A stretch of 64,000 nt of DNA. It comes from the human T2T-CHM13v2.0 reference genome, Homo sapiens. Under the pieces are notes generated by a model. The model was not told the origin of the DNA. It worked only from the letters and a program-made list of their open reading frames with translations, and did no database searches. The stretch lies in NCBI RefSeq assembly GCF_009914755.1, contig NC_060947.1. One strand, written 5' to 3'. The position numbers and the translations under genes were made by a program. Within the stretch, counting starts at the first letter, position 1. Every line of letters starts with the position of its first letter. Shown piece after piece: positions 1,074 through 22,860 of this stretch.

Positions 1074-1454
1074 CAGTGTAAGATACTAGCTATTAAAAAA
1101 TAAATAAATAAATAAATATATATATATATATATAGCAACAGCTGATTTGTCTGGAAGACTTTGGTCAGAAGACAGTGTATGAAGAAGACAGTGAGTCCCT
1201 AGAGGAATATAAGAATATACATCATGTTAATATATTATATATAACATAAACAGCTAATTATATCTGTATGTATAGTATAAACATAAAGTACAAAAATATT
1301 TGTATATAACTATAATATAAATATATGTGTAAGATATTAGCTATTAAAATATACATATGTGTGTATGTATGTGTATATGTGTATATATAATATATACATA
1401 TATAGCATATATAATATATAATATATAGCATAATATAAAATAATATATTGTATT

Positions 1455-1575
1455 ATATATAAGACATAATATAATATATATTATATATAAGACATAATAT
1501 AATATATATTATATATAAGACATAATATAATATATATTATATATAAGACATAATATAATATATATTATATATAAT
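1455..1575. repeat. 28-bp AT-rich minisatellite, ~4 copies
   Basis: Repeated ATATAAGACATAATATAATATATATTAT. Confidence 0.85.
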
Positions 1576-17739: not shown

Positions 17740-19390
17740 AGATCCATACACAACACAGACACTCAAGACACACACACACACCTTTAGACAACGTACATGT
17801 ATAGACACAACACAGCACGCTCAACAGACACACGCACGCATACACAACACACAGTCAACAGACACAAACATATCATACACATACAACACACACTCAAGAC
17901 ACAACGGCTGTACACGACACACATATATATAAATAATGCCACACACGATCAACACACACACACAACATACACTCAAGACACATCTACATAGAACACACGT
18001 GTATATACACAACAGACACACACACACAACACACAGTCAAGAAGCAACATCTATACACAACACACATGTATATACACAATACCACACATGCTTAACAGAC
18101 ACACCCACAAGACACACTGAAGACACAACATCTATACACAACACATATGTGTATACACAATGCCACACACAATCAACAGACACACACACAACACAGTCAA
18201 GACACATCTATAGAGAACACACGTATACACACAACAGACACACACAAACACACAATCAAGAAATAACATCTATCCACAACACCCATGTATATACACAATA
18301 CCACACATGCTTAACAGACACACACGCAAGACACAACATCTATACAGAACACACATGTATATACACAATACCACACACGGGATCAACAGACACTAATACG
18401 CAACACACATTCAACAGACAAATGCACAAACACATCATATATAGAAGACACACACATCTATACACAACACAACACACTGAACAGACACAGAAACAACAGA
18501 CACACACACAACATAACATGCTCAACAGACACACAACACACAAGAGACACGCACAAACACATCATATATACAAGACACACACATCTATACACAACACAAC
18601 ACACTCAACAGACACACACATACACAACACACAACAGACACACACACAACACGCTCAACAGACACACAACACACAAGAGACACACACACAAAGACATCAT
18701 ATATACAAGACACACACATCTATACACAACACAACACACTCAACAGACACACACATACACAACACACAACAGACACACACACAACACGCTCAACAGACAC
18801 ACAACACACAGACACACGCACAAACACATCATATATACAAGACACACACATCTATACACAACACAATCAACAGACACACACATACACAACACACAACAGA
18901 CACACAACACGCTCAACACACACAACACACAAGAGACACGCACAAACACATCATATATACAAGACACACACATCTATACACAACACAACACACTCAACAG
19001 ACACACACATACACAACACACAACAGACACACACACAACACGCTCAACAGACACACAACACACAAGAGACACACGCACAAACACATCATATATACAAGAC
19101 ACACACATCTATACACAACACACTCAACAGACACACACATACACAACACACAACAGACACACAACACGCTCAACACACACAACACAGAAGAGACACACGC
19201 ACAAACATCATATATACAAGACACACACATCTATACACAACACAACACACTCAACAGACACACACATACACAACACACAACAGACACACACACAACACGC
19301 TCAACAGACACACAACACACAAGAGACACACGCACAAACACATCATAAACACAACACACGCACTCAAGACACACATGGACACACAACACA
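17740..19390. repeat. CA-rich minisatellite with ~122-135-bp higher-order unit in its right half
   Basis: ATCATATATA.AAGAC at ~18434, 18561, 18696, 18828, 18950, 19085, 19207. Confidence 0.92.
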
Positions 19391-19944
19391 GTTTAATGTA
19401 GGTTTCCTGCCGTTTTAGAACTGAAAAAAGAAGAATGAGGCGTGTGGGCTCATTGCAGAAGTTAACTAATGCTCTGAGATTTAATTTTTCAAGGAAAAAA
19501 TGACCGTTTCTACATAGACATGTCCATAGACCATTTCTACAAGGAAGCACCGATTTGCAGCGTCCATCATGGGGACCTTTGTTTGCTTCCCCCTCTATGG
19601 GAAAATTACTTGGATGCCGCTCTTGTTTTAACCCACTCTCGCCCTTGGCTGGTCCGAGGTGTAAAGACAAATGACTTTGGGATAAACGTGGGGTTTGCAG
19701 CAAAGTGTGAGCAGGAGTCACGGGCTCACCCCAGAATGTGGGGAGGCCAGACGTGGGGCCCGCTTCCTGCCGCCACTAATTAGCGTGGGTTTTATGGCCG
19801 GTCGTTAAAAAGGCCGGGTCAAACAGTTGCAAAGTTATGAAACAGCCACACAGGCTAAAGACCTGGGCTTTGCAGAGGTATGAATGTTTCGCTGTGTTGC
19901 CAACTTCTCCTGAACTTTGGCGTCCTCATGGGGAAAAAAAAATG

Positions 19945-20015
19945 TAAAAAAAAAAATAAAAAAATAAAAAAAAATATCATATCTGCCTATTAAAAAGATT
20001 AGAAGCAAAAAAAAA
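19945..20015 (+). mobile_element. Orphan L1 3'-transduction insert: A-rich tail + 30-bp tag + poly-A
   Basis: Tag 19977-20006 with ATTAAA at 19989; poly-A 20007-20024; putative TSD AAAAAAAAATG at 19934-19944 and 20016-20026. Confidence 0.6.
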
Positions 20016-20126
20016 AAAAAAAAATGAATCCAGGATTGAAGCAGGAAAAGGAGTCTTATGTCCACACAGCCAAGTCAACCTCAGCAAAATTAACTCCGTC
20101 TTTTCCGAGACGTCGTCACGATTATT

Positions 20127-20390
20127 ATTATTATTATTTTTTGCTTCTAATCTTTTTAATAGGCAGATATGACATGTTTTTTTATTTTTTTATTTTTTTA
20201 TTTTTTATTTTATTATTATTATACTTTAAGTTTTAGGGTACAGGTGCACAATGTGCAGGTTAGTTACATATGTATCCATGTGCCATGCTGGTGTGGTGCA
20301 CCCATTAACTCGTCATTTAACATTAGGTGTATCTCCCGATGCTATCCCTCCCCCGTCCCCCCACCCCACCACAGTCCCCAGAGTATGATG
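20127..20390 (-). mobile_element. 5'-truncated L1PA2/3-like 3' end with 3' transduction and second tail
   Basis: L1 3'UTR ~20210-20390; own T-tail ~20177-20210; tag 20143-20172; (ATT)n/T tail; TSD GTCACGATTATT at 20115-20126 and 20391-20402. Confidence 0.88.
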
Positions 20391-21489
20391 GTCACGATTA
20401 TTTTTCTGTGATGACAGTAAGAGTCAGAAAATGTACCACCTTGATAAAGATATAGTTATCATTAGGTGCTTCTTGGGCCAGCTAGGAGATGATTGGGTTG
20501 TAAACTTGGGGGCTGGCTCTTGAGAAGGCATTCATTTGCTTTTGTGTTTTCACTCAGAAACCCACATTGATACTGGGCTTTGGAACTCTCCTCTGATTGC
20601 AAATTCCTGTCTTCCTAAGACAGCGTGGAGGGTTCCAGGGCTCCGTGTGTACGTAGGTGGTCAGGTCAGCCGGCCAACGCACCGACGCTACAGCAAATGA
20701 TACGTATAAATTATTGGAGCACTGCGGGAATGGCAATTTGACTTTTTATGAGCCTGTAACGACGTCCCTAGAGAAGAGTGTGTATGTGTGTGTGTGTGAA
20801 ATTCTGGAAAGGATTTTGCATTTTCATAGATTTGGCACCACTGACTTTAAAAGGGGCTGCTCTGGGTTTCGAATTTCTCCAGTCATCAATAAGAGCCATT
20901 TTGGTGGGGTTTTTTTCTTCTTCTTTTTTTAATGTCTGGTTTGTGCAGGAAATATAAAGATTGTAATCCTTGTTGACGAGGGGTCTTCAAAGAATGAGAC
21001 TTTGGGGTGTAAAAGGGAGCTTACCCGTCTACATCTTGGGCATGGCAGTTTGGGCACCTATTTCAAGGGTGTGGGCACGAAACCACAAGCTCCTGTGAGC
21101 TCATATCGCTGCTGATGGGTTGACAGAGTAAGCGGGTTCCGGACACTGTGGCAGTTTAACCCAGACTCAGAAAAGCAAGGCAGAGATGAGACGGTCAGCT
21201 GCAAGCACCCTTTCTTCCCGTAGGCTGGTGGGCTGAGACGCTGCGTCTCTTCCTGCCTAAACCTGTTCTGGATGTTTTCACCACAAACTGGCATCTGCAA
21301 TGTAACGGGCTGGAAAACGGGCAGTGTGGGGGATTGGATTGGCCCTGCTTGGGGGTGTCTCTCTTGAGGCCGTGAGCCCTGACTCTCTGCTCTCTGATCC
21401 ATGAGGGTGGACTCCGGAGGCAAGGGGATGAGGCAGATAAGGGAAGGGAACGGACAGACTAGCGCTTGGAAGAAGAAAAAGGTTTAGAT

Positions 21490-22860
21490 ATTGTAAGGGT
21501 TTCCTGGGGATGCTGTCACAAGATGCCAAAAACCAGAGGATCAAACAAGAAAAATTTCATCTCTCCGCGTCCTGAACTACAGTCCTCCTAAAAACTGTAT
21601 ATACATCCTCAGTCTCATAGCCTGTGAACGGGACCTTATTTGGAAATAGGGTTTCTGCAGATGCAGGTAGTTAAGGATTTCAACATGAGATCATCCTGAA
21701 GTAAGGTGGATCCTAAATGCAATGACAGGTGTCTTTCTAAGAGACAGAAGAGGAGACACAGACACGGAGGAGAAGGCCACGTGGAGATGGAGGAGAGACA
21801 GGGAGGACTTCTGGACTCCAGGAAGGCCAGTATTGGGTCCACTATGATTGTGTTTAGTTCCTCCTGGAGGCTCTAGGGGAGGGTCCTTCCTGCCTCTCCC
21901 AGCTCCTGGGGGCTCCAGGCGTCCCTGGGCTTGTGGCCGCATCACTCCAGTCTCTGCCTCCGTCTCCACGTGGCCTTCTCCTCTGTGTCTGTGTCTCCTC
22001 TTCTGTCTCTTAGAAAGACACCTGCCATTGCATTTAGGACCCACCCTACTCCAGGATGATCTCATGTAGAAATCCTTGACTTAGTTACATTTGCAGAGAC
22101 CTTATATCCAATTAACGTGCCATTCACATATTCTGGAAGTTAGGCTGTAGAGATAGCCTTTAGGGGGACTGTAGTTCAATTCAAAACAATTGTATTATCT
22201 TCCCTCTGGAGGCTGTAGGGGAGGGTCCTTCCTGCCTCTCCCAGGTCCTGGGGGCTCCAGGCATCCCTGGGCTTGTGGCCGCTTCACTCCAGTCTCTGCT
22301 GCCATCTCCATGTGGCCTTCTCCTCTGTGTCTGTGTCTCCTCTTCTGTCTCTTACAAGGACACTTGTTATTGGAATTAGAATCCACCCTAATCCAGGATG
22401 ATCTCATCTCAATATCCTTAATTTATTACATCTGCAAATACTCTGTTTTCAAGAAGGGTTTCATTCACAGGTTCTATGAGTCAGGACATAAACGTGTTTC
22501 TTAGGGATCACCATTCAATCTACTAGAATTGTGTTCAGTTCCTTCTGGAGGCTCTAGGGGAGGGTCCTTTCTGCCTCTCCCAGCTCCTGGGGGCTCCAGG
22601 CGTCCCTGGGCTTGTGGCCCCATCACTCCAGTCTCTGCCTCCGTCTCTATGTGGACTTCTCCTCTCTAAGTGTATGGAAACTTCCCTCTTTTTACCAGGA
22701 CGCGACTGATTGGATTGAGCATCCCCTCTGCTCCAGTCTTTCCTCATTATACGTCCATAATATCTGCAAAGACCCTATTTCCTACAACACCACGTTCACA
22801 GGTATGTACAGTTAGGACCTTAACAGATATTTTGAAGAAACACAATTCAGTTCACAACAG
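21490..22860. mobile_element. MLT1 (MaLR) LTR-derived array: one inverted partial copy (~21630-21795) plus three ~340-bp tandem copies
   Basis: CTGGAGGCT.TAGGGGAGGGTCCTT.CTGCCTCTCCCAG at ~21865, ~22206, ~22546; GGACCTTATTTGGAAATAGGG..GCAGAT typical of MLT1. Confidence 0.8.

What the first reader, a model, noticed from the sequence alone, without database searches (positions are those of the whole stretch)
19934..20402. Twin, oppositely oriented retro-insertions sharing the same L1 3'-transduced tag about 100 bp apart
Seen: TCATATCTGCCTATTAAAAAGATTAGAAGC (19977-20006) is the exact reverse complement of 20143-20172. The right copy lies inside a TSD-bounded unit (GTCACGATTATT x2) that reads, on the minus strand, L1PA2/3-like 3'UTR, T-interrupted A-tail, tag with ATTAAA, second tail. 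That is the established layout of an L1 3' transduction. The left copy has the same interrupted A-tail, tag and poly-A but no L1 body, and its own apparent TSD (A9TG x2). Inference: one source L1 inserted twice, tail-to-tail, on opposite strands within ~100 bp, probably in a single concerted event (two nicks primed on two copies of the RNA, or re-use of one RNA/cDNA). The pair also forms an inverted repeat of roughly 70 bp.
Basis: partly seen in the sequence, partly recalled or inferred. Interest (0 to 1): 0.8.

Follow-up and report, generated by a model that had tools for sequence, protein, structure and literature searches.

The report
Paired inverted L1-derived inserts beside SHOX enhancer
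Two small, oppositely oriented retro-copies of the same L1 read-through RNA, whose tag comes from chromosome 7, sit 111 bases apart between the SHOX limb enhancer ZED and the breakpoint of a common disease deletion; whether they arose in one event is still open.

Summary
A 30-nt tag lies at 19977-20006 (+) and 20143-20172 (-). The arms match 54 of 56 nt in the core and 87% over 91 nt.

The right unit is a TSD-bounded L1 3' end, T-interrupted A tail, tag and second tail. The left unit has tail, tag and poly(A) only.

New here:
- The tag has one other copy in the assembly, in unique DNA on contig C7 (chr7, about 21.0 Mb), inside an old repeat that runs on past the tag. That locus is the parent.
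- No L1 3' end lies within 10 kb of it, but the junction is a textbook L1 endonuclease site.

So both arms come from one RNA species (about 0.9). Two chance hits 111 bp apart are excluded.

How they were paired is unresolved:
- coupled double target-primed reverse transcription, about 0.5;
- a DNA-level inverted template-switch copy of the right arm, about 0.35.

No ape orthologues could be reached with these tools.

Primer mapping places the pair inside the 367 bp that Skuplik et al. 2018 call repressive. It starts 7 nt from their 563-bp ZED enhancer. The centromeric breakpoint of the recurrent 47.5-kb deletion lies in the right unit's L1 piece.

The parts
19363..19926 (+). Context: the '563 bp' ZED limb enhancer fragment of Skuplik et al. 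2018. It ends 7 nt before the left unit.
   Evidence: Both primers from Suppl. Table S1 map once each with 0 mismatches.
19934..19944 (+). Left unit, target-site duplication copy 1 (A9TG).
19945..19968 (+). Left unit: 5'-truncated piece of the L1 A tail (T A11 T A7 T A3).
   Evidence: The T positions are shared with the right arm.
19969..20008 (+). Left unit: 40 nt identical to chr7 (AAAAAATA, the 30-nt tag at 19977-20006, then AA). ATTAAA lies at tag positions 13-18.
   Evidence: query 103-142, 100%.
20007..20015 (+). Left unit poly(A), part of an 18-A run at 20007-20024.
20016..20026 (+). Left unit, target-site duplication copy 2 (A9TG). By coordinate arithmetic its T (20025) is a common A/T polymorphism.
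   Evidence: rs68084433 in Suppl. Table S2 of PMC6155277; the mapping is my inference.
20027..20114 (.). 88-nt spacer, unique target DNA between the two units.
   Evidence: the query 20022-20120, which contains the spacer, has only 2 matches in the assembly, this locus on C23 and on C24.
20115..20126 (+). Right unit, target-site duplication copy 1 (GTCACGATTATT).
20127..20142 (-). Right unit second tail, now A6 T(AAT)3 AAT on the minus strand. It may partly be an (ATT)n expansion of the target.
20143..20172 (-). Right unit: the 30-nt chr7-derived tag.
20173..20217 (-). Right unit: CATG plus the T-interrupted L1 A tail. It has two differences from chr7 and the left arm, at 20173 and 20176.
   Evidence: (95%).
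20218..20390 (-). Right unit: 5'-truncated L1 3' UTR piece. L1 homology runs about 2-3 nt into the TSD.
   Evidence: other genomic copies listed at 93-95%; 28 of them re-aligned at 93.75-94.9%; 9 private differences in 176 nt; hub annotation mobile_genetic_element 20218-20393.
20391..20402 (+). Right unit, target-site duplication copy 2.
20328..20329 (.). Context: annotated chromosome breakpoint, identified here as the centromeric breakpoint of the recurrent 47,543-bp SHOX-downstream deletion.
   Evidence: Hub annotation. PMC6155277 passages place it 401 bp from ZED and 37 bp from the 930-bp fragment boundary. Primer mapping puts that boundary at 20293.
20350..20362 (+). Context: a match to the 13-mer CCNCCNTNNCCNC inside the L1 piece.
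   Evidence: hub annotation nucleotide_motif.

Best explanation
Both arms are reverse-transcribed copies of one RNA species.

The RNA. It was an L1 transcript that ran past its own weak poly(A) signal. It continued through the element's T-interrupted genomic A tail and about 38-40 nt of flanking chr7 DNA. It was then cleaved 12-14 nt after an ATTAAA. The source L1 sat at CTT|AAAAAATA on chr7 (about 21.0 Mb in this assembly). That allele is absent from this genome and was presumably never fixed.

The integration (inferred). Two target-primed reverse transcriptions were primed on that poly(A) RNA at two T-rich 3' ends on opposite strands, 111 bp apart. They are the bottom-strand T9 at the left site and the top-strand ATTATT(T) at the right site. 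Each got its own second-strand break, giving TSDs of 11 nt and 12 nt. The 111-bp segment between them kept its orientation. One cDNA stopped after 176 nt of L1, the other inside the A tail.

The coupling (inferred). Both primers lay within reach of one RNP or one long poly(A) tail. This is effectively twin priming on poly(A) rather than on an internal site.

The result is an AT-rich inverted repeat wedged between the ZED enhancer and the later deletion breakpoint.

What is shown: the anatomy, the single chr7 parent and the uniqueness of the spacer. What is inferred: the lost source L1, the RNA origin of the left arm and the simultaneity.

Confidence by step: same RNA species about 0.9; coupled double TPRT about 0.5.
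For: One parental locus only. Five hits with up to 2 mismatches are this locus twice on C23, twice on C24, and C7.

Direction of copying:
- The chr7 sequence continues without poly(A) into an old repeat. Five fetched loci were re-aligned to it at 77-87%, out of about 18 further loci listed at 74-87%.
- The X copies stop at the poly(A) site.

Match to chr7: the left arm is 40 of 40 nt identical, the right arm 38 of 40.

Shared tail: both arms carry the units T A7 T A7 T plus 11 nt before the tag. That is expected if the tail was encoded in the source.

The chr7 junction reads TTTTTT/AAG on the primer strand, which is the canonical endonuclease site.

Signs of two separate integrations:
- Each unit has its own direct repeat of L1-typical length.
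- The left insert ends exactly at the RNA's 3' end with a pure A run.
- The spacer query (20022-20120) matches nowhere else in the assembly, so the pair was not imported as one piece.

Chance is excluded. Two hits within about 200 bp have odds of about 1e-7 for the only two progeny seen (my arithmetic).

Precedent: synchronous, interacting L1 integrations and twin priming are documented in tumours and cell models (passages of 10.1101/2024.08.27.596794; PMC11702581).
Against: No L1 lies at the chr7 parent in this assembly.

Both priming sites are T runs followed by C (TTTT/CC and TTTT(T)/CT), not the canonical TTTT/AA.

The left TSD differs from a bare A run only by TG. Its T in the right-hand copy maps onto a common A/T polymorphism, rs68084433, allele frequency about 0.5 (mapping inferred).

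The right unit's post-tag tail may be as short as one A if (ATT)n expanded from the target.

Nothing in the sequence separates an RNA-templated left arm from a DNA-templated one.

I found no report of two TSD-bounded same-tag inserts this close together. The passages I read in large somatic catalogues list 5' inversions and fold-backs but not this (PMC10191854; PMC12016303).
Confidence: 0.5

Rival explanations
1. Only the right unit is a retrotransposition. The left arm is a DNA-level inverted copy of its 3' end.

During replication or break repair, either at integration or later, a nascent top strand ending near the A9TG site switched to the T-rich top strand of the right unit. It copied about 70 nt: tail, tag and A run. 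It returned by pairing its new A run with the T9 of the original template. Returning at that point automatically re-copies A9TG and mimics a TSD.
For: The left arm contains nothing that the right arm lacks.

Both junctions lie in long A/T runs that offer microhomology. The distance, 98 nt between the arms, is typical of local switches.

Short-range template switching that creates inverted copies and hairpins is documented in human and ape genomes (passages of PMC5453318; listing of PMC7954356).

Extra polymerase synthesis of 52-220 bp giving fold-back copies at L1 integration sites is reported for 3 of about 1,200 somatic events (passage of PMC10191854).

This reading has no need for a second non-canonical endonuclease site.
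Against: The copied segment ends exactly where the RNA ended and never runs into the right unit's target DNA.

The departure point after TG has no microhomology with the entry point.

The left arm matches chr7 at the two positions where the right arm differs. The right arm must therefore have changed after the copy was made. This is equally needed under the main reading.

A 71-nt copy seems to me long for a short-range switch. That is my expectation only; the passages I read in PMC5453318 gave no event lengths.
Confidence: 0.35
2. The L1-tail-plus-tag junction was not encoded at chr7. It was made once, when reverse transcriptase started on a polyadenylated chr7 transcript and jumped after about 40 nt to the poly(A) tail of an L1 RNA, giving a chimeric retrocopy. 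Because such a junction is unique, the left arm must then be a copy of the right arm or of its cDNA.
For: No L1 lies at the chr7 locus.

The switch point AAAAAATA would give a T6 microhomology with a poly(A) tail.

Chimeric L1 insertions formed by template switching are catalogued (passages of PMC13174262).
Against: 3' transduction is far commoner than chimera formation (established knowledge, recalled).

The chr7 junction is a perfect endonuclease target.

The internal tail is T-interrupted in a graded pattern that is frequent in genomic tails of the nearest L1 relatives. By eye, at least 10 of 28 have two or more T interruptions, and four resemble it closely: L026, L035, L040 and L046. A fresh mRNA tail would be pure A.
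Confidence: 0.1
3. Two unrelated insertions from the same active source landed near each other by chance, or because the site is a generic hotspot.
For: Both sites are T-rich. The region is open, recombination-active DNA according to the hub annotation.
Against: These are the only two progeny of this tag in 3.1 Gb. Chance proximity of 200 bp or less has odds of about 1e-7.
Confidence: 0.03

Closest known systems
L1 3' transduction (read-through of the L1 poly(A) signal; layout recalled, and as used in PMC7058536 and PMC10191854 passages)
   Same: The right unit has an L1 3' end, the source's A tail, unique foreign DNA ending after a poly(A) signal, a second tail and a TSD. The foreign DNA maps to one locus.
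   Different: The parental locus carries no L1 in this assembly. The transduced piece is only about 38-40 nt.
Orphan (body-less) 3' transduction (term recalled from the cancer L1 literature; not seen in the passages I read)
   Same: The left unit has tag plus poly(A) and no L1 body.
   Different: It keeps about 30 nt of the source's A tail. It lies 111 bp from a sibling in the opposite orientation.
Twin priming (Ostertag & Kazazian 2001; seen only as a citation and in descriptions)
   Same: Two cDNAs of opposite orientation are primed from the two strands of one target region.
   Different: In twin priming one TSD pair encloses both pieces, the inverted piece comes from a more 5' part of the RNA, and priming is internal. 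Here both pieces start at the poly(A), they overlap completely, each has its own TSD, and 88 nt of target lies between them.
Synchronous L1 insertions that exchange ends (Zumalave et al. preprint 10.1101/2024.08.27.596794, passages)
   Same: [quoted passage not shown]
   Different: Those are somatic, at distant loci, from independent elements, and are recognised by translocation or inversion. Here the pair is in the germline and fixed, 111 bp apart, from the same RNA species, with no exchange.
Short-range template-switch mutations (Loytynoja & Goldman 2017, PMC5453318, passages)
   Same: A nearby sequence reappears as an inverted copy and creates a hairpin in one step.
   Different: By my expectation (not checked in the passages read) the copy is long for such events, and it coincides with the ends of an RNA.

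Membership tests
L1 3' transduction (right unit) | L1 3' end, then A tail, then non-L1 sequence, then a second poly(A). | tested here: met
L1 3' transduction (right unit) | The non-L1 sequence maps to a single parental locus. | tested here: met
   C7 only, continuous with its flanks there.
L1 3' transduction (right unit) | The parental locus lies directly 3' of a source L1. | tested here: not met
   no L1 3' end within 10 kb in this assembly. The junction is a canonical endonuclease site, so an unfixed source allele remains possible but is not shown.
L1 3' transduction (right unit) | A poly(A) signal 10-30 nt before the end of the transduced piece. | tested here: met
   ATTAAA at tag positions 13-18. 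The tag ends at position 30.
L1 3' transduction (right unit) | A target-site duplication around the whole unit. | tested here: met
   A 12-nt repeat found only at 20115 and 20391.
Orphan transduction / TPRT insertion (left unit) | A target-site duplication of L1-typical length. | tested here: inconclusive
   A9TG occurs twice here, but only TG is informative, and the T appears to be polymorphic (inferred mapping).
Orphan transduction / TPRT insertion (left unit) | An L1 endonuclease motif (TTTT/AA-like) at the primed nick. | tested here: inconclusive
   T9 followed by CC. The T run is good, but the bases after the nick are atypical.
Classical twin priming | A single TSD pair encloses the inverted and the direct piece. 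| tested here: not met
   Two separate TSD pairs with an 88-nt unique spacer between them.
Classical twin priming | The inverted piece derives from a more 5' region of the RNA by internal priming. | tested here: not met
   Both pieces start at the poly(A) and share the tag and tail.
Short-range template-switch mutation | An inverted copy of a sequence within a few hundred bp, absent from the outgroup. | not testable with these tools
   The inverted copy is present. No primate orthologue is available.

The most novel reading that the evidence does not exclude
This is a fixed germline fossil of coupled, poly(A)-primed double integration. One L1 particle, or one long poly(A) tail, served two opposite-strand nicks 111 bp apart. 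A single event thus created an AT-rich palindrome. That palindrome now forms the 'repressive' 367 bp next to the SHOX ZED enhancer, and the breakpoint of the commonest SHOX-enhancer deletion lies about 114 bp beyond its right arm.
Probability: 0.4. Interest if true: 0.7.

Novelty: new variant of a known kind. Interest (0 to 1): 0.5.

Why it matters
For L1 biology. How the second strand is cut and primed is still debated. A natural pair of same-RNA inserts facing tail to tail, each with its own TSD, would show that both strands of one target can be primed on poly(A). The check is cheap: ape T2T assemblies and human pangenomes.

For SHOX. The 367 bp that lowers ZED reporter activity about 10-fold (PMC6155277 passage) is shown here to consist almost wholly of two L1-derived inserts plus 88 nt of old DNA. 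The centromeric breakpoint of the recurrent 47.5-kb Leri-Weill deletion lies in the right insert's L1 piece, about 114 nt beyond a hairpin-capable inverted repeat. Whether the repeat contributes to either effect is untested.

Tried and rejected
Classical twin priming: rejected. There are two TSD pairs, and both pieces start at the poly(A).

Import of the whole left-spacer-right block from elsewhere: rejected. The spacer query matches nowhere else in the assembly.

An L1 further upstream at chr7: rejected. There is no L1 3' end within 10 kb on either side.

The T-interrupted tail as evidence that the left arm was copied late from an aged right arm: rejected. Similar graded T-interrupted tails are common among the 28 nearest L1 copies, so the pattern may be inherited through source elements.

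A partner for the annotated breakpoint at +47.5 kb:
- I found no homology; the best hit was 12 nt.
- The premise was wrong. Primer mapping later showed that 20328 is the centromeric breakpoint, not the telomeric one.

The paper behind the RefSeq recombination and motif features: not identified. I used. The primary report of the 47.5-kb deletion is not held.

The subfamily was not assigned, because no repeat library was available.
Full report
**1. What is there**

The 30-nt string TCATATCTGCCTATTAAAAAGATTAGAAGC occurs at 19977-20006 on the plus strand and at 20143-20172 on the minus strand. It occurs nowhere else in the window, and 0 of 100 shuffles gave a match.

Extended without gaps, the arms are 19935-20025 and 20124-20214: 91 nt, 87% complementary, 98 nt apart. 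The informative core, 19957-20012, has 2 mismatches in 56 nt. The other 10 mismatches lie in A/T runs.

The right unit is bounded by GTCACGATTATT at 20115-20126 and 20391-20402, the only two copies in 64 kb. On the minus strand it reads as follows:
- a 5'-truncated L1 3' UTR, 20390..20218;
- A runs of 4, 6, 7, 7 and 7 separated by single T;
- CATG;
- the tag, which contains ATTAAA at its positions 13-18;
- A6 T(AAT)5, running into the duplication.

It holds 71 nt: T A11 T A7 T A9 TA, the tag, then A9.

Between the inner duplications lie 88 nt. The 99-nt query containing them (20022-20120) matches nowhere else in the assembly, except the same locus on contig C24.

C24 is identical to the window from 19633 to 21506, so the structure is real in two independently assembled chromosomes.

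**2. Where the tag comes from**

A whole-assembly pattern search (up to 2 mismatches) gave five hits. They are the two arms on C23, the two on C24, and one at C7:21003769-21003798.

On chr7 the tag sits in ordinary DNA. It is preceded by ...TTCTCTCTTTCTTAAAAAATA and followed directly by AATGACGTAC..., with no poly(A).

A 261-nt chr7 query showed that the sequence from tag position 6 onwards belongs to an old interspersed repeat. It listed about 18 other loci at 74-87%. Five of these were re-aligned at 77-87%, and they run on for about 100 nt past the end of the tag. So chr7 is the parent, and the X/Y copies are cut at a poly(A) site 12-14 nt after ATTAAA.

The left arm equals chr7 over 40 of 40 nt (AAAAAATA, tag, AA). 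The right arm matches 38 of 40.

No L1 3' end lies within 10 kb on either side of the chr7 site; the best blastn hit of the 176-nt piece was 19 nt at E 0.46. The junction CTT|AAAAAATA reads TTTTTT/AAG on the other strand, the canonical L1 endonuclease target. This motif is established knowledge, and it appears as TTTT/A in the passages.

The simplest reading is a source L1 allele at that point that was never fixed. This is inferred, not shown.

A rarer alternative is a chimera made by reverse-transcriptase template switching from a chr7 transcript to an L1 poly(A) tail.

**3. One RNA species for both arms**

Both arms have T A7 T A7 T followed by exactly 11 nt before TCATATC. They therefore share not only the tag but also the internal tail structure.

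I first thought a patterned tail argued for a late DNA copy. The tails of the 28 nearest genomic L1 copies changed that view. By eye, at least 10 have two or more T interruptions. L026, L035, L040 and L046 have runs of 5-9 A split by single T, as here. Such tails seem to be inherited along L1 lineages, so this feature does not discriminate.

These are the only two progeny of the tag in 3.1 Gb. The chance that two independent hits fall within 200 bp is about 1e-7 (my arithmetic). The arms are therefore linked, either mechanistically or by copying.

**4. How the pair arose**

*Geometry.* The poly(A) ends face each other. Both primers therefore belong to the 111-bp middle segment, 20016-20126: its bottom-strand T9 on the left and its top-strand ATTATT(T) on the right.

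*Reading A: coupled double TPRT.* Two complete integrations took place, with TSDs of 11 nt and 12 nt, primed on the same RNA species or on one long tail.
- For it: each unit has an L1-sized duplication, the left insert ends exactly at the RNA's 3' end with pure A, and the spacer kept its orientation.
- Precedent exists for simultaneous, interacting L1 integrations and for twin priming (passages).
- None of the passages I read describes this arrangement.

*Reading B: a DNA-level template switch.* A nascent strand leaves after A9TG, copies about 70 nt of the right unit's T-rich strand, and returns by A-run pairing. That return re-copies A9TG and imitates a TSD.
- For it: both junctions lie in A/T runs, the distance is short, and such switches are documented.
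- Polymerase-made fold-backs of 52-220 bp occur at a few L1 integration sites.

*Against A:*
- Both nick sites are T runs followed by C rather than A.
- The left TSD rests on TG only.
- By coordinate arithmetic (hg19 = window + 807,765 at ZED), the T of the right-hand copy is rs68084433 A>T, allele frequency about 0.5 (Suppl. Table S2).

*Against B:*
- The copy stops exactly at the RNA end.
- There is no microhomology at the departure point.
- A 71-nt copy seems to me long for a short-range switch. The passages I read gave no event lengths, so this is only my expectation.

*Non-discriminating:* the two right-arm differences from chr7 must have arisen after the split under either reading. One of them, the G at 20176, maps onto an indel variant, rs111882096. 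Its inserted allele has frequency 0.95-1.0 and is absent from hg19.

*Odds.* I put A at about 0.5, B at about 0.35, the chimera variant (which implies B) at about 0.1, and chance at 0.03 or less. Classical twin priming is excluded.

**5. Age and local evolution**

The search with the L1 piece listed other genomic copies at 93-95% identity (40 scored of 2,757 candidates). The 28 fetched and re-aligned were 93.75-94.9% identical.

Against those 28 copies the L1 piece has 9 private differences in 176 nt: 6 are A/T to G/C, 2 are the reverse and 1 is G to C. The 28 copies themselves differ from their own majority at 1-5 positions, but they were selected for similarity, so this comparison is biased.

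The excess and its direction fit the GC-biased gene conversion described for PAR1 (passages of PMC4102438).

The subfamily name was not tested.

The sequencing screen of the 930-bp fragment in PMC6155277 lists only SNVs and 1-nt indels. The number of alleles typed per variant was 186-248 in the patient cohort and 217-252 in controls (Table S2). This suggests that both inserts are fixed or nearly so in that sample. This is my inference.

**6. Context found on the way**

Primers from Supplementary Table S1 of Skuplik et al. 2018 (PMC6155277; supplement read whole) each map once with 0 mismatches.

| Fragment in the paper | Window coordinates |
|---|---|
| 563 bp (ZED limb enhancer) | 19363-19926 |
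| 930 bp | 19363-20293 |
| 324 bp | 19925-20248 |
| 461 bp | 20278-20738 |

- The pair begins 7 nt after the ZED fragment.
- The authors' 324-bp fragment is exactly the left insert, the spacer, the right tail and tag, and 31 nt of L1. [quoted passage not shown]
- The 563-bp fragment was about 10-fold more active than the 930-bp fragment. [quoted passage not shown] That 367 bp is 19927-20293.
- The passages I read do not mention its retro-insert nature. My term search for LINE, repeat and repetitive found only a UCSC repeat track in a figure legend.
- They place the centromeric breakpoint of the recurrent 47,543-bp deletion 401 bp from ZED and 37 bp from the 930-bp boundary. That is the hub's breakpoint at 20328-20329, inside the right unit's L1 piece and about 114 nt beyond the right arm of the inverted repeat.
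- As single-stranded DNA the repeat folds at -63.8 kcal/mol, z = -12.

Any causal link to the reporter effect or to the breakpoint is speculation.

**7. Is it in print?**

Searches (L1, transduction, twin priming, orientation, tail-to-tail; SHOX/PAR1) found no description of this pair or of this class. These searches cover only the open library held. The primary paper on the deletion is not held.

**8. Verdict**

The same-source claim is strongly supported by a newly found parental locus. The single-event claim is plausible but untested. This is a new variant of known L1 behaviour, in a clinically annotated spot. Interest 0.5.

Noticed in passing
window 19363-20738: Published SHOX ZED enhancer fragments map here. 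The 367 bp proposed to be repressive, and the 324-bp luciferase-negative fragment, coincide with the paired inserts. The recurrent 47.5-kb deletion's centromeric breakpoint lies in the L1 piece.
   Followed up: yes
window 18478-19204: The two assembled copies of this region (C23 and C24) differ by 128 alignment columns clustered here, in CA/CACA-type indels and substitutions that look like a variable tandem repeat. One further difference lies at 19632, and none from 19633 to 21506.
   Followed up: partly
window 20218-20393: Private substitutions in the L1 piece are biased towards G/C: 6 of 9. This fits GC-biased gene conversion in PAR1. None of them falls in the 13-mer motif at 20350-20362, which is therefore shared with the related L1 copies.
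   Followed up: partly
whole window: CCNCCNTNNCCNC matches 14 times against 1.78 expected. Several of the matches have identical or near-identical sequence and so probably lie in repeated elements.
   Followed up: no
window 21587-22505: Three copies of an unrelated repeat form close inverted pairs. The arms 21669-21793 and 21957-22081 are 94% complementary and 163 nt apart. Each arm ends in a 13-mer motif match.
   Followed up: no
L001 (C7:21002269-21005298), minus strand 1525..1400: The tag's 3' 25 nt and the next 100 nt or so belong to an old interspersed repeat with about 18 further copies listed at 74-87% (five re-aligned at 77-87%). In the two re-aligned copies that span this position (L009, L012), the site of the chr7 ATTAAA signal reads ATAAAA or ACTAAA.
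   Followed up: partly
L020-L047 (28 L1 3' ends): Many tails of this L1 group start TAATAATAATAAAAT and continue with A runs of growing length split by single T. This suggests that part of a source's genomic tail is transcribed and inherited.
   Followed up: no
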